Of a DNA stretch of 64,000 bases, positions 1-55,831 are shown piece by piece. Under the pieces are notes generated by a model. The model saw only the letters and a list, made by a program, of their open reading frames with translations. It was not told where the DNA came from and did not search any database. The translations under genes and the position numbers were made by a program. How positions within the stretch are numbered: the stretch's first letter is position 1; every line of letters begins with the position of its first letter. This stretch comes from Octopus vulgaris (taxonomy: Eukaryota), in contig OX597816.1 of NCBI GenBank assembly GCA_951406725.2, positions 96,720,001 through 96,784,000 on the forward strand, given 5' to 3'.

Positions 1-2779
1 TCCTCCACAACTTTCAAGTACGACCTGATACTGCTTACCCTTAAGTATGATGCTGTTGCTACAAATGCTCACATCCCAAAGAAGGCCAGTCAACTAACTG
101 ACAAAAATTCAGTCATCAGCATGCTTCAACCACTAGCTCACAGATATGCTACTTCTGTAATCTACCTTTGTTGTTATGAGAGTTGCAATGCCCCTTTGTA
201 AGAGATAGACTGGTCCAAGTAAAGTATAAATAGTAACAATCTGAGTGAGCTTGACAGTTCAGAGCCAAGTGAAGTTCATGTTAGTTTGCAGTGAAGTCAG
301 GTGTCAGTTGGTTAGTTCACAAGGAATATTTATTGTTGGTTCATAAAGAGATTTGTTAGTTTGTTACATTGTTTTTACGGTCATCTGGTTATCTTGTTTA
401 CTGTATGTAACAATTACGTTGCAACAACCTTTTTTGTCACAATTATAATGGTCTCTGCTTCTCTGCACATGCTAGCTGCTTACCTTCTTCTCCCAGGCCA
501 TCTTGTCCCACCTATCTTTCCCATGTCATTAATTGTCTCAGTCCTTTATCTTACTACTTAGATTTTGCACTAAATACTTCATACAATCCTTCCTTTTCAG
601 AATGACAACCAAAAAGAATTCTGAGAAAAATATTTGTTTGAATTTTAAAAGATTAGCTTGTATAAATGTGTTGAGAGATATGCTGGTTGAACCTCATAGA
701 GAATATGATAAAGGACTGAGACGATTAATGACACACTGTGCTTAAGAAAATGTCCAACTATGCAAGAATGGCAAAGCTAGTGTTAAAAATGGTTTTAGTG
801 ATTGAGGCTAGAGGCATAATACATATATGTGTGTATAGATGTGTATATACCTGCACACATTTGGATTTCTCATCTAATGTGTCTGTCAAGTCTACATCTG
901 CTACTCCACTCCTCTATTTGATACCTTCTTATCTCCCTGTCACTCTTCCCAACTCATCTCACTCATTCTCATTTTTCTACCTAACATGTATTGTCTCTCC
1001 ATCCAAACCTATTTGCTGTATTATTCTGCTACAGAACCTATTACATCATATCATTAATGACTTAGACAATAACAACCCATCAAATCCAAAAAGCAAAAGT
1101 AAAGTAACAAATATGATGAGGTGATAAGGATCAGATTTGATGAAAACATTAATACAACAGAAAAGAAAGCAAGTTTCTAGAGATTGCATTCTAATCTGTG
1201 AATAGTTTCTTTGAAATAAAAAATTCCAAGCTGCTTCAATAGTTATTTCATAATTACAGACAATTTTCACTGATTTTGTTTTCTAAACTTTATTAAATTA
1301 TCAATATTTTCTCCACAATTTAACAGCAAGGTAAAATATATCTGTTAAGAGAAGAGCGACCGTCTATTGGTATAACTTTACTCATATCTTTAAATATAGT
1401 CTGCTTAAGTTAGCAACGTGAATATTGAAGAGTAGAAAGGAAATCCAGCCACGTTTCATGGTTTGCTATCTCAATAACTTCTTTATAGCATCTAGTGGCC
1501 AAAGACATTATCAGGAGGAACCATGTCTGGTTTTGGCCCCTATTCCTCTACTATTTTTGGTATTAAATGCTTATATTAAATCATATTAAATGCTTCTATT
1601 GTTTTCTTTTTAGTGCAATGCAATAGTGTTTCTACAACCAAATGTTCTTTATCTGTAATCTTCTGGGTCTGCTGCCACTAGTACTTGCATAGGTTACACC
1701 ATTTTTGTCTCCCTTTCTATATTTCTGCACAATAAAATCACAATAAAAATCCCCAGAAAATGCATGGTGGCCATTTTCACTGTGTACACTTTACATTTAT
1801 TAATTCTGCTTTTAATATTCTTCATTCTTTTTCTATATTTTAGTTTAGAGCAGAAATAAAACACAAATTACAAAGAAATTCTTGAATGGGGTAGAAAAAT
1901 TTTCATTTAATCTGAGAATGGAATGTCTGCATCCCATCATACATAAAAACAATATAGAAATATGATAGTAGATGAAGCTGGCATCAAGAGTGGGTGGCTA
2001 TAAAATATTAAAGCGTTTCTGAAACAGCTAATATCATTCAGAAACAGAGATCAATAGTAAATTAGCAAGGCTCAGAAGTCCATTAAGTTCTAGTGATTCT
2101 GTCAACATGCCTCAACAAAGTGCTGTAAACTCATTAATCAGTCAATAAATACTTTACTGTTGGAAATGTATTAAATCTTGATGAAATTAGCATTTAGAAT
2201 AATGATGTGAAGATAAAGAAGATAAAGTAAACAAACCAAAATAAAATAGGTGTATCAGCAAACGGCTCCATTACCTGCCATTAAAGTAGTTTCATAAGGA
2301 GCTGTATATTTGTTTTTATGGCATTTGATTCATAAGAAAAATGTAAATGAGCTCTGCTACAATTAACGTGACTGCAATTATAAATATACCCAAAATGAAT
2401 CTTATTTATTTTCACTTGAGATTTTTTTCCCAAGCTCTCTAGATGAAATAACAAAACCCTCATGCATCAATATTCAATAAATTGAATATTATCACTATGA
2501 TTATAATTCTCTTTTATTACCTGATATAATATCAAAGCAATCTTTATGTTTTCACATTTGCACAAAATTAAATATCATGTGATTATCTTTCCTGCAAAAG
2601 TTTCTCTTGATTTTTTTTTATTGCTTAATTTTTCTTTTAATGCTGAATGGTGTGTGTATAAAACACTATTTGTAAAAAACACTGAACAGTCACTTAGTGA
2701 CGTGTAAAATGGACATTCTTTTAGATAACCTTTAACAGTCTCAATGGAGATTAAAAAAAGATAAAATAACTTAACAGGG

Positions 2780-3195
2780 CTGCTAGCTGGCCCCCATGCC
2801 CGTGGCATGTAAAAAGCACCATTTGAGCGTGATCATTACTAATGTCTCTTTACTGGCACTTGTGCTGGTGGCATGTGAAAAACAACATTCGAGCGAGGGC
2901 GTGGCCAGTGCTGCTGGACTGGCTCCTGTGCAGTTGACATGCAAAAAACACCATTTGAGCGTGGCCGTTGCCAGTACTGCCTGACTGGCCCTCGTGCCGG
3001 TGGCATGTAAAAGTACCCACTACACTCTCGGAGTGGTTGGCATTAGGAAGGGCATCCAGCTGTAGAAACTCTGCCAGATCCGATTGGAGCCTGGTGCAGC
3101 CATCTGGCTCGTCAGTCCCCAGTCAAACCGTCCAACCCATGCCAGCATGGAAAGCAGACGTTAAACGATGATAATGATAATGATGATGATGATGC
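2780..3195 (+). mobile_element. RTE-tail SINE / RTE 3' UTR with tandem subrepeats and (GAT)n tail
   Basis: Repeated 'gtggcatgtaaaaagcacc' units, then 'gagtggttggcattaggaagggcatccagc...aacgatgatgat'. The same tail ends the RTE fragments at about 41700 and 55150. Confidence 0.8.
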
Positions 3196-8600: not shown

Positions 8601-9350
8601 TTATGGAATAAAATTTTCAGTAACTGTTTGATAAATCACTAGCTGACCACGTGCCATCAATAATGACAGCAAGTTGTAGTATATTATATATAAATCAGGT
8701 AGAAAATAAGGTACATAATAAACAGACATACAAACATTCATATACTTCCCTTGTACATGCACATGCATACACACATATATTCACACAAAGTTGAAACGCT
8801 GATTTATTTTTTCACCAACTTCATTCCTTATTTATATATCACCCCTTCCTTTCTCTCATTGCAATTATTTTCTCTCAGTCAGGGCTATAACTCTCACTAT
8901 TTTCTCCCTCCTCCACAGCCGTCATGGTTCTGGACAAATATATATATATATATATATCCAAATATATAAAAACACCACTCTCATTATTATATTAGGAAAG
9001 TGTATAATTTTAGAAAAGTTATGAGAACCATGTATCTTAAGCATAAAAGAATAACATAACTCTTTCTTAGACGTTTTCATAAACAAATAATTCAGAGTTA
9101 TATTTCCAGAAAATAACATTGAATTCAAGGTGATGGACAGAAATAGAAATATAATTTTAAATCTTATTAGTGTAAGTGCTATGTTGCTAAATATGCAAAT
9201 AACTGGAGAACAATTTCAATTGCTACTTTCCGGTGAGAGGTTTCAAGCAGGGAAAATCATCTATATGTTAAAACCTTTGCTAAAAAGATATGCGAAGTTA
9301 TGCAAGTGTCAAAACATTAAAATATAGAGTAATAAATCAGTTCAACTTAC

Positions 9351-9602
9351 TTGAGAAATTGAAGATTCTACCATTTGAAGATTGCTGTGTGAAGGAATTT
9401 CAGCTTGAAGGGTTTGACCTTGTGCTACCATTAATTCTTTACAAGCCAATGATTTAATCAACATTTTACCTGATTGTGATGGCAGTAAAACAAAGCAACC
9501 CAAAGGATGTTTAGTTTTCAGAAAGGAATCATGCAGGAGATTATTTTGTGGTGGAACTGAAGAAATTGTTTCCTGTCCAAGTTGACCAATTAACACATAT
9601 TC
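9351..9602 (-). CDS. M1AP: M1AP-like gene, coding exon (EYVLIGQLGQ...GCFVLLPSQSGKMLIKSLACKELMV...SNLQMVESSISQ)
   Basis: tctttcacacag|gaa...caa|gtaagt, 252 nt, phase 0-0. FVLLPSQSGKMLIKSLACKELM resembles recalled M1AP FYVIMPSHSLTLLVKAVATRELM. The downstream exon(s) were not found in the window. Confidence 0.9.
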
Positions 9603-11888
9603 CTGTGTGAAAGACAAATCAAACACAGTTTATATCATATTAAACTTCTTAAAATAAAACAAAAAAATTCCTTTCTAAATTTCTGAGAAGCGTTAAGGCA
9701 ACAATAATTACAAAATTTCTGTCTATAGAATATATATTTCATATTATTATGTTTTACATTATGTTTATAGTGGTCTAGTCTTTGATAATCTTCAGATACC
9801 AATTTTCTTGAGGAAAACATTTTCCTATTTTGAATTTATAATTCAAGCCCTTAATTGGAATGCCAGGTTTTTAACTTTCATTACTATTATTTCACTGCCC
9901 TGTAATATTTTCCACTGTCATGTAAAATGCTGCATTAGAAATAATGCTTCTAATAGTACTTAAAATCATGAACTGCCAGAATCCTCACACCAAGCAAATT
10001 GCTTAGCAGCATTTCATGTCTTTACACTCTGGGTTCAAATTCTGCCAAAGTCAACTTTGCCTTTCATCCTTTCAGGGTTGATAAAATATGTAAGTTGAAC
10101 ACTGAGGTTGATGTAATCAACAATCCTCTTACTCTGAACTTGCTGGCCTTGCACCAATATCTGAAACCAATTTATATATATATATATATATAGTACTTCA
10201 CATGATGATATGGTCCAAGCCTTATAAATATGATGTCCTTAAACCGTTCAAATTTTTTTTAATTAACTAAGCAATAATCTTTTTTAATTGAAAAGGAAAA
10301 AACAAATTTTGAAAAAAGGATAAAATGTTTATTGGTATTGAGTTTACTTTTCTTGTTAAGTATTCAACAACTGAAAGCTTTTACAAGCTACAATAATATA
10401 CTAGCTACTCTTACAGTCACGTAACACTTGCTCCTACTTCCACCCCTTCGATTAACTATTATATGGGGACAACAGACATATTCTGGAATATTGGATGTTT
10501 AAAAAAATTGTAATATCTAGTGTCATTTTGAAGCCATCCTTAGTTCTTTGATACAAATGTTCTGTTTTAAAGTGACCTAAATTAAAATCTTCCTTCAAAA
10601 TCTCATATCAGCTTGTTTCAGTCACTAACTTAGTAATTACAAAGATGTTTTACTAAATTTTATATTATATTTAAAACTAGATTAAACAAAGGTGTGTATG
10701 TCAACAGATATATGGTAAGAAAAGGGCTAAAGCATTTGGAATGGCTATCTACTGTTTATGCCAGGTTTATTATATTTTAAGTCTCACAGCCTTAGCTTCT
10801 CTATTTGAATTGATGATAGAAAGCTGAAATAGTAATTGATAAAAAGTAAAATAGGGAGAGAATGTCAACTGCTTTTTGGGTAAGGCAAATAAACAAACTG
10901 AAAATAATATAAAAAGGAAAAATTCTGTCAATACAAAATTACAAGAAGAAAATTGAAATGTTTGGATCCATAATATATCGAAAACTGTATATCTCAAATA
11001 CAAAGAAGTGTACACTGAATTTCTCATTGAAAATTGCCATAGAGTTTAGAACCATATTAACACATAAAGAATTTCATTTTCATATAAGCTAATTAAATGC
11101 CAAACCATTTCAGTAATTTCTTTTGTTGCACAATGAGAAGTGAATTAGAATAACATCATTTATGTGAAATGATAGCTTGCTATGAAAGAAATATTTTGAA
11201 AATCAAATGTAATGCAAAATATTTGTTTACAAAATTCTTTTTATACAAGTTAGTTATTATTTACAAGCTGTTTACCATTTATAACAAAACTGCTCAATAT
11301 TATCCCAAATTTACTGTTACATTATAACTGTCACATTAATAGTTTATTTTCATTGGAAAATTCAATTTAATCATATATTCAGTATTGTGTTTATCAATAT
11401 GAACTCATTCTTCTACAATCAACAAGTTATAAATGATACATTTATCTTGTTTCAAATGATATCTCAGAGCTTTAGTGGCTGATAGGTTAAGATGTTGGAC
11501 AACTTATCTTATAATGAAGTCATTCATAGGAGTTGTTTATTGCAAATGTAGGCAAAGCATATTACACTACTTAATAGTATTAAACCTTGCTGAAATGCAA
11601 GAACTCCTGCTATTTCATACTTATTACTAGTAGTTAAGTTACAATGAATATGTAAACAATATTAAAAACCTAAAATGAATATGAAATGAGGAATAAATAA
11701 TATTTTGCTTTATTTATTCCTGTATGTATGGGACAGAATTTCATACATGTTTCATTTTCCTTGCTGAAGTATAATCTAAGCAATTATGAATGAACCATTA
11801 AGTAAAGATACAAGGTGGTATATTTATTGCTGTAAGGAAATACATTTATTGTTGTAAGAAAATAGAATTGTTTAAAGAACTATTACCT

Positions 11889-18170: not shown

Positions 18171-18174
<4 letters not shown>

Positions 18175-19382
18175 GTCATCCCATAAGATCTGTCCAAATT
18201 TTGGATAAAGAAAACAAGTGATCAAATGTGATATTTAATTGAAATTTAATCATCAATGTACTTTCCCTGATTATCTATGACTGCCTTCCATCTATTTACA
18301 AGCTTTTTAATCCCATCAATGTAAAACTCTTTTGGTTTCAAAGTGAAGAACTCTGAAATGTCTGTTTCAACCTCCTCCTGGCTTGCAAAAGTTATGCACC
18401 GCCAAATTATTCTGTAAACTAAGAAACAAATGGTAGTCTGAAGAAGCAAGGTTGGGAGAATAAGGTGGATGAAGAATTTATTCCCAACCAAGCTCTTCGA
18501 TCTTCTGTGATGTGATCTTTGCAGTGTGGGGTCACGCATTGTCCTGATGAAACATCACTCCTTTTCAATTCACTAAAGTGGATCTTTTTTTGTTCAAAGG
18601 CTCTATTGCTGACAGTAGACTTAAGCATTGATTGTTGCATTAGGTGGTAATAATTCAAAGTGAATTACTCCTTTGTAATCACATCAGATAGAGAGAAGAA
18701 CCTTTTTTTTCCATGAAGTTCCCTTCTCGGTTGTGGTTGAGCTTTTTCCCTTTTACCAAGCCACTATTTATGATGTTTCACATTTCAATAGAAGATCCAT
18801 TTTTCGTCACCAGTCACATGAGTTCGCAAGAATGGAGAGAAAAGCAGACAATTCATGAGGCACCCATTTTCCAAGTTTAGGAAACTGTCCAAGTTGTTGA
18901 AGATGATGATGAACAGTTGTATGGTTTGAACTAAGCTTTATTGCCAATTCTTCAACTGATAATGCAGGATTTTCTTTAAGTAATGCCTTAAGGAGCTTAT
19001 CATCAAACTCAACTGGACATTCTGTTCAATCTTCATCTTCAAGGCTGAAATCTTCACTTCTGAATTTTGCAAACCATCTTCTGCAAGTTCTTTCATTCAA
19101 GCATTCTTGCCCATAAACTGAGTGTATGTTTCGAGTCACTTTGGTGGCAGAGTTTCCTTTTTTGTACTCATAAAGCATTAAATGCCCTTTGGATACTTCA
19201 ATGTTAGAAAGGGTTTTAATCAAAGTAATTTTAATTCTATTATTCTGTAAAATAATACTTATTTAGTTTAAATGTACACAAATGCATAAAAATAACTTTT
19301 AATTCCCTTAGACATTCTAAAATACTATTAAATTTCATTTAATTTTAAAAACGGTTAAATTAGACAGAATTTATGGGATGAC

Positions 19383-19386
<4 letters not shown>
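18171..19386 (-). mobile_element. mariner DNA transposon, near full length, inactivated
   Basis: TIRs tcaggtcatcccataag and ttatgggatgaccgga set in (TA)n. Transposase remnants include the N-terminal HTH (RTCRRWFAKFRS), WVPHEL, VTGDEKW and YSPNLASSDY. Confidence 0.92.
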
Positions 19387-19427
<41 letters not shown>

Positions 19428-19527
19428 TCCCCCTCCCCCTCCTCTTCATCATCATCATCTGTTGTCCATGCTGCCATGGGTTGCATGGTTTGACCAGCAC
19501 TGGTAAGCTGCATCAGAATCTAGTCTG

Positions 19528-19720
19528 ATTTGGGATGGCTTCTATGGCTGGATGCCCTTTCTAATGCCAACTACTTTACAGAGTGTGCTGGGTACTTTTA
19601 AGTGGCATCACAATGGTTCTTATACATGGCATATACATATACTCACACACACACACAGATATATATATATATATATATCTTTGTGTGTGTGTGTGTATAT
19701 ATATACACACACACACACAC

Positions 19721-19760
<40 letters not shown>

Positions 19761-19891
19761 GTGTGTGTGTGTGTGAGTATATGTATATGCCATGTATAAG
19801 AACCATTATGATGCCACTTAAAAGTACCCAGCACACTCTGTAAAGTAGTTGGCATTAGAAAGGGCATCCAGCCATAGAAGCCATCCCAAAT
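19528..19891. repeat. near-perfect palindrome centred on (TA)n/(CA)n
   Basis: The SINE segment at about 19528-19660 is repeated inverted at about 19757-19891 with one substitution. The same peptides appear on both strands in the ORF track. Confidence 0.97.
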
Positions 19892-19894
19892 TCT

Positions 19895-19995
19895 AGTGTA
19901 TGTTCAGATGACAACAATATTAATGATGATAATAATATATATATATTATATATATTATTATCATCATTAATATTGTTGTCATCTGAACATACACT
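19895..19995. repeat. second adjacent palindrome centred on (TA)n
   Basis: agtgtatgttcagatgacaacaatattaatgatgataataa and ttattatcatcattaatattgttgtcatctgaacatacact are exact reverse complements. Confidence 0.97.
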
Positions 19996-20629
19996 TTCCC
20001 ATTTTTGAATGAGTCGGATGGAAGCCATTGAGGTAAGTTTACTATAGGTGGATGCCCTTCCTGCCACCAATCCTCATTTGTTTGCAAGCAAGGTAATATT
20101 TTCTCATAATAAAGGCAGCAAGCTGGCAGAATAGTTAGCATGCCAGGTGAAATACTTAACAACATTTAGTATGGCTTTACATTCTGAGTTCAAATTCTGG
20201 CAAGATTGACTGCCTTTCATCCTTTCGGGGTCAATAAATCAAGTACTAGCTGGACAGCTGCTTCACCAAAATTGCTGGCAGTGTGTGAAAATTTGAAACC
20301 AGTATTTCTTCATAACCAACTGTTTCTAGGGAAGATTGGAAATGAATGATACTGTTCATATGATGATGGCAAACGTTTACAATTATCATGTGTTGTCAAA
20401 GTAAGAAAGTATAAACACACAAACACACACACAGATGCACACACACACACACACACATACAAGCACACACACACATAAATGCACAAGCACACATGCATGC
20501 ACACATATTTCTATACAACAGGCACCTTTCAGTTTCTGTCTATCAAATCAACTCATAAAGCCTTGGTTTGCCAGGAGTAACAGTAGAAGGTACTTGCCAC
20601 AGTGAAGCTATATATATAAATATATATTC

Positions 20630-26139: not shown

Positions 26140-26512
26140 CTGTTGTTGGTGTCACATAAGTGGTACCTGTGCCAGTGGCATGGAGAAAACACCTTTTGAG
26201 CATTGGGCCTCAGAGGCAATGACAAGTGACTGAAATCTTTGACAATATGCTGTGCTTGAGAAGACGACCCCGCAAGCTAAGTTAAATTGTAGTCATGGCA
26301 GATACTGGTGTCACCAACTGGCACCCATACCGGTGGCATGCAAAAGCACCCATTACACTCTCAGAGTGGTTGGCATTAGGAAGGGCATCTAGTCATAGAA
26401 ACCATGCCAAATCAGACTGGAGTCTGGTGCACTCCCTCAGCTTACCAGCCCTGGTCAAACCATCCAATCCATGCCAGCATGGACAATGGATGTTAAATGA
26501 TGATGATGATGA
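26140..26512 (+). mobile_element. RTE-tail SINE with (GAT)n tail
   Basis: Same 3' sequence as 2780-3195. Confidence 0.8.
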
Positions 26513-27432: not shown

Positions 27433-27879
27433 TATGTATGCATGCATGCATACATATATACAACCAAGAAATATGTTTTGCAATTTTATTGATTAATTTA
27501 CTCTTTAGCTTTTCAAGATATTTTCACGTAATTTTGGTAAATATATCTGTTAAAATGAGATATCAGTGTTATTTTCATTTTTGCATAATTTAGATGACAA
27601 TTTATTCACTGCACCCTGTATACACACACACTTGTATATGCTTTGCCTTGAGCACTCAACACCTGATGAAGTCAGCCACAGAGGTACTGTCAAAACATCT
27701 GACCTGTCTTAAACGTTTTTAGACCTTTTATAGCCCATTCCTCTCAAAGTCTGCTGACACCCAGTTTCTTCTAAACATAAAGAGAGACATTGAACCAAAA
27801 AGAGAAAAGAAGTGTAATTTAGCTACTCCAAATGTATCTTAGTTTTTAGGACGATGGGGCAGAGAGGATGGAGGTAGGG

Positions 27880-35766: not shown

Positions 35767-36359
35767 ATACAACTTTTGATGATATATCTAAGACTTATTT
35801 GCAACTAAGTTAACAGTATTGAACTCAAAACTCACACTAGTCTGCCTATTACACCAATTTTTTGCTCTATGACAACTCCCTAGTCCCACTACGTGGCACC
35901 AGGCCAACCAAAGCCTCATGAATGGATTTGGTAGACGGAAACTGAAAGAAGCCCGTTGTGTGTATATATATATATATATAGTCATTTGACTGGCCGTGCT
36001 AGAATACCACCTTTAGTTGAACAAATTGACCCCAGGACTTATTCTTTGTAAGCCTAGTACTTATTCTATTGGTCTCTCTTACTGAACCACTACGTTATGG
36101 AGACGTAAACGCACCAACACCAGTTGTCAAGTGATGGTGGTGGGACAAACACAGACATATATATATATACATCGGGCTTCTTTCAGTTTCCGTCTACCAA
36201 ATCCATTCATGAGGCTTTGGTTGGCCCGGTGCCACGCAGTGGGACTAGGGAGTTGTCATAGAGCAAAAAATTGGTGTAATAGGCAGACTAGTGTGAGTTT
36301 TGAGTTCAATACTGTTAACTTAGTTGCAAATAAGTCTTAGATATATCATCAAAAGTTGT

Positions 36360-36393
<34 letters not shown>

Positions 36394-36600
36394 ATTTGTG
36401 TGTCTGTGTTTGTCCCACCACCATCACTTGACAACTGGTGTTGGTGCGTTTACGTCTCCATAACGTAGTGGTTCAGTAAGAGAGACCAATAGAATAAGTA
36501 CTAGGCTTACAAAGAATAAGTCCTGGGGTCAATTTGTTCAACTAAAGGTGGTATTCTAGCACGGCCAGTCAAATGACTGAAACAAGTAAAAGAATAAAAG
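35767..36600. repeat. SINE plus flank containing an inverted copy of itself inserted at its (TA)n tract
   Basis: A 35767-35955 pairs with A' 36173-36361, and B' 35980-36157 pairs with B 36401-36578. Three TA tracts separate the blocks. Confidence 0.95.
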
Positions 36601-39294: not shown

Positions 39295-39380
39295 ATATAT
39301 AGAAAATAGTAAAAAGTGAAAAAACCACAGAAGGCTTGTTTTAAAAGTAGTTTTTTCACTTTTTACTATTTTCTATATAT
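39295..39380. repeat. ~31 bp inverted repeat in a short insert between (TA)n tracts
   Basis: atatatagaaaatagtaaaaagtgaaaaaac versus gttttttcactttttactattttctatatat. Confidence 0.9.
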
Positions 39381-40202: not shown

Positions 40203-40430
40203 GAGAGAGACACAGAATTACTGGTAAGGGATTATTAATCTGAGCAAAATACTTCACAAGCTCTCTGTAGGCACACTAGGCTAACAGTATTGTTTAGATT
40301 AGTGAAGAACTCCAAGCATTCTTATAGCAGGGTCTGAGGTTATAGTTCATCACCATCCTATATTGTAAAACCATGGTTGTGTTCCAGTCAAACTGGTTTT
40401 TACACAGAGTAATATACAAGACAAGGTATA

Positions 40431-40819
40431 AATAATGGTCATTAAATATTTTTCCTTTATTGCAGTAAATTTGGCTTACAACTCTTTCCACTAGTCGTTA
40501 TAAGTATGTTACTGATAGGTTTCTCAATTGGTCTATTGATCAGTTGAGAAAAGTTGAATGACCTAAAAAATTAGTGCTGCTTTCGTCAGAGCTATTTCTG
40601 ATTGCAACAAAGCAGAACACTGAAGGAATGTGTTCTGCTTTGTTATAACCAGAATTGGCTTTGACGAAACCAGCATTAATTTCTTAGGTCATTCAACTTT
40701 TCTCAACTGATCAATAGGCCAATTGAGAAACCTTTCAGTAATGAACCTATCATAACTACTGGAAACAGCTGTAAGCCAAATTTATTCCAATAAAGGAAAA
40801 ATTTGTAATGATAATTATT
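40431..40819. repeat. old palindrome, ~190 bp arms with 9 nt loop
   Basis: Arms 40431-40620 and 40630-40819 are diverged reverse complements; loop tgaaggaat. Confidence 0.92.
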
Positions 40820-40839
40820 TATAACTTGTGTAAAAAATC

Positions 40840-41736
40840 CATGGCAGTGAAACATGGGCTGTGACTGCTGAGGACATGCATAAGCTTGCTAGAAATGAAG
40901 CCAGTATACTCTGCTGGATGTGTAATGTCAGTGTGCATACACAACAGAGTGTAAGCACCCTGAGAGAAAAGTTGAACAAAAGAAGCATCAGATGTGGTGT
41001 GCAAGAGAGACTGCTGTGCTGGTATGATCATGTGTTGCAAATGGATGAGGACAGCTGTGTGAAAAAGTGTCACATCATAACAGTGGGGGGAACCTGTGGA
41101 AGAGGTAGACACATGAAGACCTGGGATGAGGTGGTGAAGCATGACATTTGAACATTAGGCCTCACAAAGGCAATGACAAATGACCAAGACCTTTGGTGAT
41201 ATGCTATGTTTGAGAAGATCCAGCAAGCCAAGGGAAATCATAGCTGTGGTTTATGCCAGTGTCGCATAACCAGGCCATTGGACAATAAACTATGCTTGAG
41301 AAGACCTGTTGAGTCAAGTAAAATCATTGTTGCGGCCAATGCCAGTACCACATGACTGGTACCCATGCTGGTGGCATGTAAAAAGCACCATTTGAGTGTG
41401 GCTGATGCCAGTCTCTCCACACTGGCTCCTGTGCCACTAGCACGTAAACTGCACCATTTGAACATGGTCAATGCCAGTGCCAGTTGACTGGCTCCCATGC
41501 TGGTGGTACATAAAAAGCACCATTCAAGCATGGTCACTGACAGTGCTGCCTGACAGGCCCTTGTGCCGGTGGCACATAAAAAGCACCCTCTACACTCTTG
41601 AAGTGGTTGGCATTAGGAAGGGCATCAAGCTGTAGTAACCTTATCAGACCAGATTGGAGCCTTCTGGCTTGCCAGTCCTCAGTCAAATCGTCCAACCCAT
41701 ACTAGTATGGAAAGTAGATGTTAAACAATGATGATG
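40840..41736 (+). mobile_element. RTE LINE 3' end with tandem 3' UTR repeats and (GAT)n tail
   Basis: HGSETWAVT...RNEAS.L.WMC...GRGR.KTWDEVV; tail shared with the RTE-tail SINEs. Confidence 0.88.
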
Positions 41737-42269: not shown

Positions 42270-42484
42270 TATAACTAATGTAGGATAAAATTTTTTCTAA
42301 ATAAAATTTTATCAATCGCCAGCATATCAAAAAATACCTTTAAAAGTTAAATGTATAAATAACTTATAAAATAAGGGCAAAAGAAAAAGTCCAATGCCAA
42401 ATATGCTGAAAAATAGACAAAATTGTCAATAACCATTATAATTTATGCGTCTCGAAACAAGCTGATAGAAATTTCTAAAAAATC

Positions 42485-42555
42485 CGTTATTACCGTATTG
42501 GTTCCAATTTCGGGGTTAATTCATAAGAATTTTCCCCTCTTCAGCAATAAATACG
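42485..42555 (-). ncRNA. type I hammerhead ribozyme
   Basis: Minus strand: ttattg-CTGAAGA-gggg-aaaattcttatgaattaa-cccc-GAAA-ttgg-aa-ccaa-TA|cggtaa. Stems I (two G-U pairs), II and III all form. Predicted cleavage after AUA, between 42496 and 42495. Confidence 0.8.
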
Positions 42556-42580
42556 TAAGACATAAATTAAATACTTACTC

Positions 42581-42640
42581 ATACCCTGAAGAGGGGAAAA
42601 TTCTTATGAATTAACCCCGAAATTGGGACCAATACGGTAA
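42581..42640 (+). ncRNA. second hammerhead core, inverted copy with stem I out of register
   Basis: atacc-CTGAAGA(42586-42592)-gggg...cccc-GAAA(42619-42622)-ttgg-ga-ccaa-TA|cggta. Confidence 0.65.
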
Positions 42641-42764
42641 TAATGGATTTTTAGAAATTTCTATCGGTTTCAAGATGCATAAATTATAATGGTTATTGAC
42701 AATTTTGTCTTTTTTTCGGCATATTTGGCATTAGAATTTTTCTTTTGCCCTTATTTTATAAGTT

Positions 42765-42803
<39 letters not shown>

Positions 42804-45388: not shown

Positions 45389-45475
<87 letters not shown>

Positions 45476-45478
<3 letters not shown>

Positions 45479-46001
45479 GGTGTCGCAAAAAGATGTACTC
45501 ACTCTTTGACAGATGATGTACGGGCTTACCTCAATGCAACAAATCCAAACAAATGGATTGGGAGGAGAGGTAGCGTTGAATTTCCTGCACATTCCCCAGA
45601 CCTCACACCAATGGATTTTTTTTTTTATAGGGACATCTTAAAGATAAGGTTTACACTGCAGAACCAGTGACAATTCATGGTCTGAAAAATGAAAATCGAA
45701 TAGAATGTCTTGCAACTCCAAATGAAATGTTTGGCAATGTTGTCAAATCCATCGTTGGACATTATCAGCTTTGTTTGGAAAATAAAGGAAGACAGTTTGA
45801 ACATTTGCAAACACGCAGGAATGAGAGAGAACATTAAATAATTCTAAATGACAATAAATAATCGTTTCTACAACAATTTATTTTCCTGAATTTAATTTAA
45901 CTTTTTTAGGATTGTATGTATATCAATAAACATCTACTTGAACACAAAATGCATGAGTACTGGGAAGTCAAAGAGTGAGTACATTTTTTTGGGACACCCT
46001 G
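45476..46001 (+). mobile_element. Tc1/mariner-superfamily deletion derivative
   Basis: TIRs cagggtgtc.caaaaa..tgtactcactctttgac and gtcaaagagtgagtacattttttt.ggacaccctg; motifs [10 protein letters not shown] and GHLKDKVY. Confidence 0.85.
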
Positions 46002-47202
46002 TAGATATATATATATACATATGTGTATGTATGTATTTATATATATATATATACATACACATATTTGTATAAAATCATTTTCGGTTTATGTCCACTTTCC
46101 ATGCTGGAATGAGTTGGGTAATTCAACATGGTCTAATTGGTTCAGTTGACATCCCCGCCTCTTCCAATGCCTCTGTTCTGATATGAATTCTATAGCCCAA
46201 TGCCATTCTTAACGCCAACCACTTTAAAGAATGAATTGGGTGCTTGTTTTGTGGTAAATGCGTGCGTGCATGCGTGTGTGTGTGTGTGCATTTTCGTGTG
46301 TACATGTGTGTGTTTATCTCTTAGTCAGGAGCAAAGCAGTGGCCATGACCCTTTACAAGGCTTCTGAGATTAATGGGGTAGGGAGAGAGGAGACTATCCT
46401 CAAGCTGGAGACCTGCCTGTCTCTCCACTCCAAATGCTTGCAATAGAGACTCCACTAAAGATACCCAAGATACTAGATGGTGGTGTTAAACCAGATTAAG
46501 TCTAGTGTTGGTGTGTATGTGTATATATAATGTATGTATATACACATATGTTTGTATATAATTCACAATTACACAATACATCCTATATATATATATATCC
46601 TTATAATGATATGAATTGCATGTGTATTTGCCTTTATAAGTCTAAAATACTCATTCTATTGATAATCATCTAATCATGTGAAAAATTCTCCATAAGAGAT
46701 TATTTGAAAGAATATTACAATCGCACAAACTTCATTCAAGTCACATGGAAAATGATAACTCTATTGTGAGGGTATAACTAAAATTCAATAACATTTGTAT
46801 TTCTTCAACATTACCAGCATTGCCATTGTTGTTACCATTGTTCTCATTTTAAATCATTGATTCTCTCATACTTGCATATGAAAGACAGCTCTGTCATACA
46901 ATATATCACCCTCATAAAATTCTTTTGCCATCTTGTTTGTGAGGTTGCCATCTTGAGATCTGATCTGACCTTTTCTTTGTTGAATACCTTCATGTTTCCC
47001 TGCTGTGAGTTTATTCTTCTGTCAGTATACACCATTTTCTTACTTATTATCTGTACATGTAACAAGGATCGTCATCTCTCCTGCATACTTCAATTAATAA
47101 CATTCATGTTCAGGAACCCTCTAAGTATACCTGCACATTAATCTTTGAGAAAGTTACCTTTGCACATCAGATTATGTTTCACACAGTTTTTTCCAATTTC
47201 TG

Positions 47203-49930: not shown

Positions 49931-51793
49931 CTGCATTTGTGTTTTCATAAATATTGATAAGACAAAAACCAAAGGAATTATTAATAAAACAAAATCAATG
50001 GAATTAAGCTGTAGAAATATATTCCAAGATACAAACATAAACTTAATTATTAACTTCATATGATGTGTGTGTGTATGTACGTATATATGTATGAATGCAT
50101 GTGTGTGCATGTATGTATATATGTATATATGAATATATGTATGTGTATATATATGTGTGTATTTCAATAAACCAGATATATGTGTAAAAACTAACACTTC
50201 ATTTTTCTGAGCTGAGATTCAAGACTGAATCTAAGGATTCTCGCTCATCTGATCCACCACTGGTCAAACAGGCATGAAAGAAATTTCTTTGTCCTGTCAA
50301 GAAGTGATGGAAGGTTTTTAACTTCGACCTGCGACCTCAGCTGTGTCATTTAAGGTTCAAGTGGACAGGAGACGACCTACATAGGTAGGAATTTCTGCTG
50401 TTGTATGTCTGTCCTTCTAGATGTCATGACCATTATAAATACAGCAATCTGTCAAGGGATGGGAGTGAGAGAGATAGCCAGAGGCGAGACAGCCAGCAAG
50501 TAACTTCGCCAGTTGAGCAGGCAACAAAGAACCAGATATTCAGCATGAACGACCCAACACTGAAGTAGAAGCAGAACATAAACAGACACCACTGAATGCA
50601 CACACAGACACAATGCACACACAGACTCAAAATATGTCCAGTTCTACCTCATCATATCGACACAGTATGTACCCTGTTAATTTCTTTTTGGCCAGCTCAA
50701 AGTAAGTTGGTAATGTCATGTGAGATTTTTGGTGTATACAACAAGTAAATGCAAGTGTCGTTTAAATAAATTATTTAAACTACAATCCGATGCTTTCCAA
50801 TTGTTTTACTTTGATGTTGCCCCCATGCCTATTTCACCTGCTACCTCAACATCTTTTGCTACACCTTTCCCACCACATATGTAAACAATCTCATACTTAC
50901 TATGAAGGTAACTTAAAATCTAAAAGTTGAAATTAATAACAAATAAATAATGCTGAAATATTAACCAACTAATTCAAAGTAGTCATAATCTCTCATTTAA
51001 GTACTGAAACCTTATAATGCGTCAATACAATATAGGTTTATTGTCTTGTTTACTTGAAAATAACATCACCAACACCAAAAAAGAAAAAAAATTACAGGAA
51101 AGATTACATCGCATTTAGATAAATAAATTTTGAATATATTAAGTTCTAGTATATTAACTTGCTTCATACACTCCATTCAATATGAATCTCCCTTGCAGAA
51201 ATACTGCATTTGTTTACACATAAAAAAATTATTCATAAATATGTTATGTTGTATGTACTGGGTCTTAGAGTTATACCTTCTAACTGCTATAATAGAGTAC
51301 TTGCAACAGGTTTATTTTGCAATCAGATACATGGGAGAAAAAAACAAAAAATATATAAGAAAAGGCAAGTAACATGTAATGACAGAAGCAAAGGAAATAA
51401 TAGCCATTAAGCATGTAGTTCTAGATATACCATACTTATGCCTAGCCAAACAACCTTACAACATACTGTACTGGTTAATAATAGCACAGTATTATGAGTA
51501 AAACTATGGATCTTTGAAGTACTCTGATCAAGATATTACAATTTAAGACCATATTGATGTTCTCTGCTCCCAAGTTTGGGAAACCTGCAAGTTCGTTTGT
51601 TAGCTCATGGACAAACTACTTACATGAGTAGTTTGTTCATGAGTGGGTAGCAAGGAAAGTAGGAGAAAACTGATAATGACAATGATATTTATGATTGTGT
51701 ATGCTATATTTTTTTTACTCTTGAAGCTATCATGTACTTTTATGTCAGGTCTGTGAGTAGGTTTTTTACTCTGTTAGTGTTTAATATCAGAAT

Positions 51794-51972
51794 GTTTAAA
51801 TACTTTGTGTTTTGTCTCTGTGGAATACATGCATTTATGCTAAAAATTTATATATATATAGATATAAATTTTTAGCATAAATGCATGTATTCCACAGAGA
51901 CAAATCACAAAGTATTTAAACTTGTTAATCCACAAGTAAAACAATATATATATTGTTTTACTTGTGGATTAA
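51794..51972. repeat. two adjacent (TA)n-centred palindromes
   Basis: 51794-51921 (~56 bp arms, one mismatch) and 51925-51972 (20 bp arms around tatata), joined by ttg. Confidence 0.95.
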
Positions 51973-52378
51973 AAAGGCAAGCAATGGTATCATATAGGAG
52001 AGATCTCCACAATTATTCAAGCAAACCACTTGGGAATATTGGTACTTGTCATATGAAATCATTGGTTCCCTTGTTAATACAAAATAAAGAATATTTATCC
52101 CACAATATGAAGTTGAATATGCATTCTCACTATTTGATACTAGCATGTATGTGTGTGTATTATGTGCAAGACAGGAGAAAGTAAAGGAAATAAGACATCT
52201 CATTCTACTTGCTTTACTCTACCAAACACATGTTCTTTACCTAGTCTACTAGCCATGGACAACAGTGCTATTCAGGTAACATGTCATGCACATATCAAAT
52301 TTTATGTGACTATTTAACACCCTACTATCATAAAAAAGAAACAAAACTGAGAATAAATATGGAAAATTAGTTACTCAC

Positions 52379-55578: not shown

Positions 55579-55630
<52 letters not shown>
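55415..55630. repeat. long compound (TA)n/(CA) microsatellite
   Basis: More than 200 bp of interrupted TA repeat. Confidence 0.95.
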
Positions 55631-55831
55631 TATAGCGTATATTTAAATACATAGAGAATCCACTTATAGGGATTCTACGCGCTAGAAAGAAAAGCTAAGT
55701 TCTATAACCACTAAGTTCTATAGAACTTAGCTGTTCTTTCTAGCACGTAGAATCCCTATAAGTGGAATCCCTTTCTAGCGTATAGAATCCCTATAAGTGG
55801 ATTCTCTATGTATTTAAATATACACTATATC
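55629..55831. repeat. nested hairpin with internal direct duplications, adjoining (TA)n
   Basis: Outer arms gatatag(c)gtatatttaaatacatagagaatccacttatagggattcta and its reverse complement. 'tttctagc...gaatccctataagtgga' and 'ctaagttctata' each occur twice. Confidence 0.9.

What the first reader, a model, noticed from the sequence alone, without database searches (positions are those of the whole stretch)
19528..19995. Twin fold-back at a (TA)n tract: A-(TA)-A'-B'-(TA)-B
Seen: the left flank A (a SINE piece of about 130 bp) is copied inverted after a TA/CA core that is itself a nested palindrome. Three nt later an inverted copy of the right flank B (about 41 bp) appears, then a TA tract, then B. 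Inference: the ancestral locus was A-(TA)n-B, it broke within the self-complementary TA run, each 3' end snapped back and copied its own flank, and the extended ends were joined. Established: (TA)n forms cruciforms cut by structure-specific nucleases such as MUS81, and polymerase theta makes templated snap-back insertions. A symmetric two-ended fold-back scar fixed in a genome, with the same layout again at 51794-51972, suggests a recurrent mutational process I do not know to be described for cephalopods.
Basis: partly seen in the sequence, partly recalled or inferred. Interest (0 to 1): 0.8.

Follow-up and report, generated by a model that had tools for sequence, protein, structure and literature searches.

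The report
Twin fold-back scars at TA repeats
Two back-to-back palindromes, each centred on a TA repeat and each copying one neighbouring flank, are likely the scar of a DNA break whose two ends folded back and copied themselves before rejoining, and two more TA-linked inverted copies nearby hint that this may be a common mutation type in this animal genome.

Summary
The layout A-(TA)-A'-B'-(TA)-B is present at 19528-19995 and again at 51794-51972. A is the original: its SINE continues leftwards, while A' stops mid-element. I found a third TA-linked inverted duplication at 35767-36578, in a different order: A-(TA)-B'-(TA)-A'-(TA)-B. Contigs of one public run (X3) break at two places that the structure predicts and cover B' beside the junction. 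An assembly artefact is therefore unlikely but not excluded: no listed contig spans the junction. An empty allele was not shown. Best reading (inferred): a break in the TA run, fold-back synthesis from both ends, then end joining. Cruciform cutting, MUS81 and Pol theta are untested. Mariner excision and fork template switching remain rivals, and the third locus fits the latter better. TA enrichment is suggestive only (5 of 40 against 0 of 25 clusters, p=0.08). The parts are known; ten literature searches showed no two-ended TA-centred form. The scan earlier noted only a single degenerate microsatellite palindrome in a primate genome. New variant of a known kind.

The parts
19528..19657 (+). 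A: original left flank; SINE piece (19528 to about 19600, element on the minus strand), unique linker, then (CA)7
   Evidence: 19456-19599 aligns unbroken to SINE copies at 26342-26492 (80%), 3008-3158 (73%) and 41579-41720 (72%)
19658..19775 (.). Nested core: GA(TA)10, inverted CA block, (TA)5, CA block, (TA)18, inverted CA block; three successive fold centres
19776..19891 (-). A': inverted copy of 19528-19643 with one substitution; stops in the middle of the SINE
19892..19894 (+). Junction insert TCT; with the next three bases it matches TCTAGT at 19519-19524, just outside A (possibly templated; weak)
19895..19943 (-). B': inverted copy of 19947-19995, 49 of 49 complementary
   Evidence: contig depth on its outer end in run X3 only, 1 of 4 runs
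19935..19955 (.). Second TA centre, with a 3-nt TAT loop at 19944-19946
19947..19995 (+). B: right flank, continuous with the sequence downstream
   Evidence: X3 record 22, X19 record 14
51794..51976 (.). Second twin fold-back: 64-nt and 28-nt arms, centres (TA)6 and (TA)5, 1-nt overlap (C, 51921) at the junction; neither flank matched a dispersed repeat in the window
35767..36578 (.). Third TA-linked inverted duplication, order A-(TA)-B'-(TA)-A'-(TA)-B, arms about 195 nt; lies in a SINE whose other copies read A-microsatellite-B
18172..19385 (-). Broken mariner element with terminal inverted repeats, between two (TA)20 tracts, about 140 bp left of A (context; possible break source for such loci)
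   Evidence: Pfam HTH_48 (Mos1 transposase) E=3.9e-19 in 1 of 4 frames scanned

Best explanation
The locus is two adjacent local inverted duplications, likely made in one repair event: a break likely fell in the TA run of an inferred ancestral A-(TA)n-B, each 3' end likely folded back on its own TA bases and copied its own flank (about 130 nt on the left, 41 nt on the right), and the two extended ends were likely joined with a 3-nt insert. The left end appears to have folded three times, which would give the nested core. The break is inferred to come from the fragility of the TA tract (hairpin or cruciform cutting). The nuclease and polymerase cannot be read from the sequence. The locus has no sign of function; it is a mutational scar.
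For: Shown: both palindromes are centred on TA and abut within 3 nt. The same order recurs at 51794-51976 with a 1-nt overlap. A is the original and A' the truncated copy. The core parses into three successive folds, each at a TA run. Four palindrome centres at two loci lie within 4 nt of a TA run of 8 nt or more, and 2.4% of the window lies within 3 nt of such a run. Reality: in run X3 one contig ends at 19762 and another begins at 19966, both branch points that the assembled layout predicts; without the copies the graph has no branch along B. X3 also has depth on the outer end of B' (7.65 in bin 19895-19917; 0 in the other 3 runs). Known parts: fold-back inversions of 10 to over 150 bp at a yeast break, joined with 0-5 bp microhomology (PMC11724301, section 15). 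Snap-back SD-MMEJ works from either side of a break in Drosophila (PMC5728401, passages). MMEJ repairs breaks at TA repeats (PMC13645644, title and passages).
Against: No empty allele was seen. X19's contig runs through the end of B unbroken, as an empty allele would, but if colinear it begins at 19947, exactly the branch predicted at the centre of the B'/B palindrome, so it fits either state. None of the 32 listed contig pieces spans the junction; 40,047 pieces were not shown. X3's depth on A/A' (16.8) is not double that downstream of B (16.5). The TA-against-CA/GA test is not significant (5 of 40 against 0 of 25 clusters, p=0.08), and the five hits are three loci. A fold-back at any short AT motif itself lengthens a TA centre, so the association is partly circular. 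The centres are short for cruciforms. Snap-back is a minor class of Pol theta insertions in C. elegans (PMC5068794, legend of S7 Fig), and the yeast events came from one end only. The third locus has an order that twin snap-back does not produce.
Confidence: 0.5

Rival explanations
1. Replication-fork template switching without a two-ended break: the nascent strand stalls at the TA hairpin and switches templates several times within about 200 nt.
For: The third locus has the form of a single '3-1-4-2' event, two inverted repeats with an inverted spacer (PMC5453318, passages). Its arms of about 195 nt are near the 148-160 nt of small inverted triplications tied to Okazaki fragments (PMC13334657, abstract, sections 9 and 12). 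Its return junction shares TAT with the TA tract. The core of locus 1 reads X-X'-X, like a tiny inverted triplication.
Against: A-A'-B'-B needs at least three switches (five with the nested core), and the middle one has 0-1 nt of homology at both loci. '3-1-4-2' made up 1% of 794 human-chimp events in that paper.
Confidence: 0.2
2. The same two-ended fold-back repair, but the break was left by excision of a TA-targeting Tc1/mariner element that sat in the tract.
For: Elements with terminal inverted repeats lie inside or between TA tracts at 18172-19385 (mariner), near 45474-46003, and probably at 42348-42777. Excision needs no long tract, which suits the short centres of locus 2.
Against: No transposon remnant can be told apart at the centres. 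The one mariner scanned is broken across several frames. No occupied allele was seen.
Confidence: 0.12
3. Assembly or library artefact: (TA)n is its own reverse complement, so a gap-filler extending inwards from both sides, or fold-back chimeric reads, would give exactly this layout.
For: The geometry fits by logic. No listed piece spans the junction, and the depth of A/A' is not doubled in X3. X3 may be the sample the window was assembled from, and its library type is not on record.
Against: The window has no N. Arms differ by substitutions, and two of the three non-repeat differences at locus 3 look like CpG decay in the original arm. X3's own contigs break at 19762 and 19966 as the structure predicts. 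The third locus has an order that fold-back extension does not give.
Confidence: 0.12
4. Two steps: a tandem duplication of A-(TA)-B, then inversion of the segment between the two TA tracts, which gives the same final order.
For: The end product is identical by logic, and TA tracts act as inverted repeats.
Against: The self-BLAST found no local direct duplication: the 4 direct hits of 88% or more over 30 nt all lie kilobases apart. It needs two rare events at each of two loci and does not explain the nested folds.
Confidence: 0.05

Closest known systems
Local fold-back inversions at double-strand breaks in yeast (PMC11724301; abstract, section 15, passages)
   Same: A broken 3' end folds on a nearby inverted match, copies its own flank for 10 to over 150 bp, and is joined with 0-5 bp microhomology.
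   Different: There the insertions came from one end, primed by a 10-bp inverted match with a 41-nt loop at an HO cut. Here both ends copied, primed at TA, and the result is fixed in a genome assembly.
Snap-back SD-MMEJ / Pol theta templated insertions (PMC5728401 passages; PMC5068794 one legend; PMC13645644 passages)
   Same: Inverted flank copies; a short insert that may be templated and may create microhomology; breaks at TA repeats repaired by MMEJ.
   Different: Copies of 41-130 nt at both ends are long for this pathway (the usual short size is recalled, not read here). Snap-back is reported as a minor class. The TA-repeat paper's text had no match for fold-back or snap terms.
Four-point template switch mutations, type 3-1-4-2 (PMC5453318, passages)
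   Same: Matches the order of the third locus, 35767-36578.
   Different: One event cannot give A-A'-B'-B.
Small inverted triplications (PMC13334657; abstract, sections 9 and 12) and ODIRA (PMC10766186, passages)
   Same: Size of about 150 nt, microsatellite-near breakpoints, X-X'-X as in the nested core.
   Different: They have flanking direct duplications around one inverted copy; here no long direct duplication exists, and two different flanks are each copied once.
P nucleotides at hairpin coding ends in V(D)J joining (PMC2193825, passages)
   Same: The same abstract order, with each end adding a palindromic copy of itself before joining.
   Different: 1-2 nt normally and typically 1-7 nt without Artemis, against 41 and 130 nt here.

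Membership tests
Fold-back inversion at a DNA break | Insert is the reverse complement of the immediate flank | tested here: met
   on both sides
Fold-back inversion at a DNA break | Inverted microhomology at the fold to prime synthesis | tested here: met
   all folds lie in self-complementary TA runs
Fold-back inversion at a DNA break | End-joining junction with 0-5 nt microhomology or a short insert | tested here: met
   3-nt insert at locus 1, 1-nt overlap at locus 2
Fold-back inversion at a DNA break | Derived from an allele without the insert | tested here: inconclusive
   direction of copying shown for A; no empty allele shown
Pol theta-mediated end joining | Genetic dependence on POLQ | not testable with these tools
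   sequence only
Pol theta-mediated end joining | Insert templated from the nearby flank that creates microhomology | tested here: inconclusive
   TCTAGT occurs at 19519-19524, but I tried 4 short words in 2 small regions, so chance is plausible
Cruciform (MUS81-cut) TA fragile site | Long uninterrupted (TA)n, such as (AT)34 in the yeast assay | tested here: not met
   present centres are 10-36 nt; the ancestral length is unknown
Single four-point template switch | Output explained by two switches | tested here: not met
   loci 1 and 2 need at least three; met only for 35767-36578
Small inverted triplication | DUP/INV/DUP with flanking direct duplications | tested here: not met
   no local direct duplication; only the CA block of about 16 nt in the core shows X-X'-X
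MITE or Foldback transposon | Dispersed copies with the same terminal repeats and a target-site duplication | tested here: not met
   A' and B' match their own flanks at 99-100% and other copies at 80% or less over comparable length; only this 64-kb window could be searched

The most novel reading that the evidence does not exclude
This genome has an active, frequent germline mutational process at (TA)n in which both broken ends fold back and copy 30-200 nt of their own flanks. It would leave young twin palindromes every few tens of kilobases (three TA-linked inverted duplications with arms under about 2% divergent in this one 64-kb window), which would extrapolate to tens of thousands per genome. 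That would be an undescribed structural-variant class and a natural record of how TA breaks are repaired.
Probability: 0.3. Interest if true: 0.75.

Novelty: new variant of a known kind. Interest (0 to 1): 0.5.

Why it matters
Breakage at TA repeats is studied in cancer cells and yeast reporters, mostly as deletions. A genome that keeps many fixed, datable, two-ended fold-back scars would let one measure arm lengths, junction chemistry and tract-length dependence from sequence alone. It would also separate break-repair from fork-switching models by counting the two orders (A-A'-B'-B against A-B'-A'-B). Such palindromes are easily discarded as chimeras or collapsed by assemblers, so the class could be under-counted elsewhere. 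If only these few loci exist, they are ordinary complex-insertion scars without function.

Tried and rejected
No whole genome is held, so the genome-wide TA-against-CA scan could not be run. A 28-nt SINE motif found 0 matches in metagenome contigs, so no extra DNA of this lineage was obtained. One search was swamped by SINE paralogues (8,775-10,431 records laid per run); the tool skipped 19910-19980 as repeat and gave no cross-run count of joints. None of the 15 listed joints (104 not shown) reflects an empty allele. Zero depth at B' in X5, X19 and X12 is a hole and proves nothing. I first read X19 as an empty allele and withdrew that after one search showed that its start matches the palindrome-centre branch. 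An independent second SINE insertion as the source of A' was rejected (99% to A, 80% or less to other copies). The palindromes at 40421-40829 and 42348-42777 (84-87% overall) are not TA-centred and look like older foldback-type elements; they were not counted. Ten paper searches listed no paper on two-ended TA-centred fold-backs or on such palindromes in cephalopods. I judged most listings by title and abstract start only, the library lacks most subscription papers, and I opened no supplements. Six answered look-ups in earlier findings gave no twin case.

Full report
What is there. The sequence 19528-19995 holds two abutting palindromes. The first has arms 19528-19678 and 19741-19891 (151 nt, 98%); the second has arms 19895-19943 and 19947-19995 (49 nt, 100%) around a 3-nt loop. 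Three bases, TCT, separate them. Outside the microsatellite the first pair differs at 1 of 116 positions, the second at none. A greedy parse of the core gives three successive folds: 19669-19693 is the reverse complement of 19644-19668, 19694-19742 of 19659-19707, and after (TA)18 the copy runs on into A'. Block-shuffled windows gave no comparable local inverted match in 30 of 30 trials, against 20 rows in the real window, which I merged into 8 loci.

Direction of copying. A and its left flank (19456-19599) align without a break to other copies of the same SINE in the window (80% to 26342-26492), whereas A' stops at the point equivalent to 19528, in the middle of the element. A' is therefore a local truncated copy of A and not a second insertion. 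For B the window offers no informative paralogue across its end, so its direction rests on position and on the contig evidence below.

A third locus. At 35767-36578 there are two inverted pairs of 205 and 193 nt, both 98% alike. The order is A-(TA)-B'-(TA)-A'-(TA)-B. It lies in a SINE of which three other copies in the window read A-microsatellite-B, so the ancestral order can be inferred from the family here. The SINE continues past the end of B', so B' is the truncated copy. Outside the repeats A and A' differ at three places, two of which look like CpG decay in the original arm, and B and B' do not differ. This order is what one '3-1-4-2' template switch makes (PMC5453318, passages), and twin snap-back does not make it. 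A fourth nested inverted duplication at 55629-55831 abuts a large TA cluster but is not centred on TA.

Is it tied to TA? An inverted copy of the adjacent 20-nt flank within 450 nt was found for 5 of 40 TA clusters, 0 of 25 CA/GA clusters (one-sided Fisher p=0.08), and 6 of 400 random positions. Five of those six lie inside loci 1 and 3 and one in an old foldback-type element. The five TA hits are three loci. Four palindrome centres at two loci lie within 4 nt of a TA run of 8 nt or more, while 2.4% of the window lies within 3 nt of one. Two caveats apply: a fold at a short AT motif lengthens the TA centre by itself, and the window was selected for the feature. No genome was available for a wider test.

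Is it real DNA? One search listed 24 runs, 7 holding half or more of the sampled words. I laid contigs of 4 of them (X3 organism A, X5 organism B, X19 organism D, X12 organism C) on 19757-20420. SINE paralogues swamped the tables, the tool skipped 19910-19980, and 32 of about 40,000 pieces were listed. A 31-mer graph of the window predicts branch points that include 19762, 19947 and 19966; without the inverted copies the stretch along B has none. In X3, record 17 ends at 19762 and record 22 begins at 19966 (its 16th letter lies at 19981). X3 also has depth 7.65 in bin 19895-19917, equal to about 11.7 over the 15 unskipped bases; the other three runs have 0 there. This fits the assembled layout in X3.

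Limits of that test. No listed piece spans the junction. Record 17's depth (16.8) is not double record 22's (16.5); hairpin drop-out or heterozygosity could explain that, but I did not test either. X3 may be the source sample, and its library type is not on record. X19's record 14 (4 other letters in 184) passes 19966 unbroken, as an empty allele would, but begins at 19947 if colinear, the branch predicted at the centre of the B'/B palindrome. It may therefore be an empty allele or the derived allele with the junction contig lost. X5 carries the A' letter at 19808 in a contig over A/A' and has no cover at B; X12 shows no orthologous piece among those listed. I put reality at about 0.88 and regard the empty allele as not shown.

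How it most likely arose (inferred). A break, or two opposed nicks, in the TA run leaves two 3' ends in self-complementary sequence. Each folds back and is extended on its own flank; the left end refolded twice more before its long extension; the two new ends were then joined. The insert and the next three bases (TCTAGT) also occur at 19519-19524, just beyond the end of A's template, which could be a last short switch that created 3 nt of homology to B'. With four words tried this may be chance. The break source is open. Cruciform cutting is documented for (AT)34 in yeast (PMC12972899, abstract), and MMEJ repair of TA breaks in cancer cells (PMC13645644, title and passages), but today's centres are 10-36 nt. 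TA-targeting transposons are a real alternative. A broken mariner (HTH_48, E=3.9e-19, in 1 of 4 frames scanned) lies between two (TA)20 tracts about 140 bp to the left, and other elements with terminal inverted repeats sit at TA tracts near 42348-42777 and 45474-46003. Fork template switching explains locus 3 in one step but needs at least three switches for loci 1 and 2. Tandem duplication followed by inversion between the TA tracts gives the same order, but no local direct duplication exists in the window.

Comparison with what is known. One-ended fold-back inversions of 10 to over 150 bp with 0-5 bp junction homology are described in yeast (PMC11724301, abstract, section 15 and passages). 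Snap-back SD-MMEJ is described in Drosophila (PMC5728401, passages) and as a minor class in C. elegans (PMC5068794, one legend). Small inverted triplications (PMC13334657, abstract and sections 9 and 12) and ODIRA (PMC10766186, passages) share the size range or the fork mechanism but need flanking direct copies. P nucleotides share the two-ended order at 1-7 nt (PMC2193825, passages). It works like a fold-back inversion at a break, on both ends; membership of the Pol theta or MUS81 pathways is untested. Ten searches listed no report of the two-ended TA-centred form or of it in cephalopods. Most listings were seen as title and abstract start only, no supplements were opened, and the library lacks most subscription papers.

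Verdict. The mechanism is plausible but inferred (0.5). It is a new variant of a known kind of repair scar. The interest lies in the density of young TA-linked inverted copies, three in 64 kb, which needs a genome-wide count. Interest 0.5; 0.75 if the process proves genome-wide (probability 0.3).

Noticed in passing
window 35767-36578: Third TA-linked inverted duplication, order A-(TA)-B'-(TA)-A'-(TA)-B, arms about 195 nt, inside a SINE with a native central microsatellite; fits one 3-1-4-2 template switch.
   Followed up: yes
window 55629-55831: Nested inverted duplication (61-nt outer arms at 95%, inner 33-48-nt copies) directly right of a 210-nt TA/CA cluster; no other copy in the window; looks like several template switches, centre not TA.
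   Followed up: partly
window 18172-19385: Broken mariner element (Mos1-type HTH) with terminal inverted repeats, flanked on both sides by (TA)20.
   Followed up: partly
window 45474-46003: About 530-bp element with terminal inverted repeats between TA tracts; the interior looks like a Tc1/mariner transposase remnant by eye (recalled motif; not scanned).
   Followed up: no
window 42348-42777 and 40421-40829: Long imperfect hairpins (87% and 84% overall), not TA-centred; probably foldback-type or MITE elements. The first ends at a TA tract.
   Followed up: no
window, TA tracts: Of 26 TA tracts of 16 nt or more, 6 measure 39-41 nt and 4 measure 20 nt; this could be a consensus or polishing effect of the assembly, or chance.
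   Followed up: no
window 2775-3028 and 41344-41597: SINE copies carrying four internal 66-nt tandem units.
   Followed up: no
window 39295-39380, 51604-51643, 27433-27456: Small hairpins (31-, 17- and 12-nt arms); the first ends at a (TA)13 tract and could be a one-sided event.
   Followed up: no
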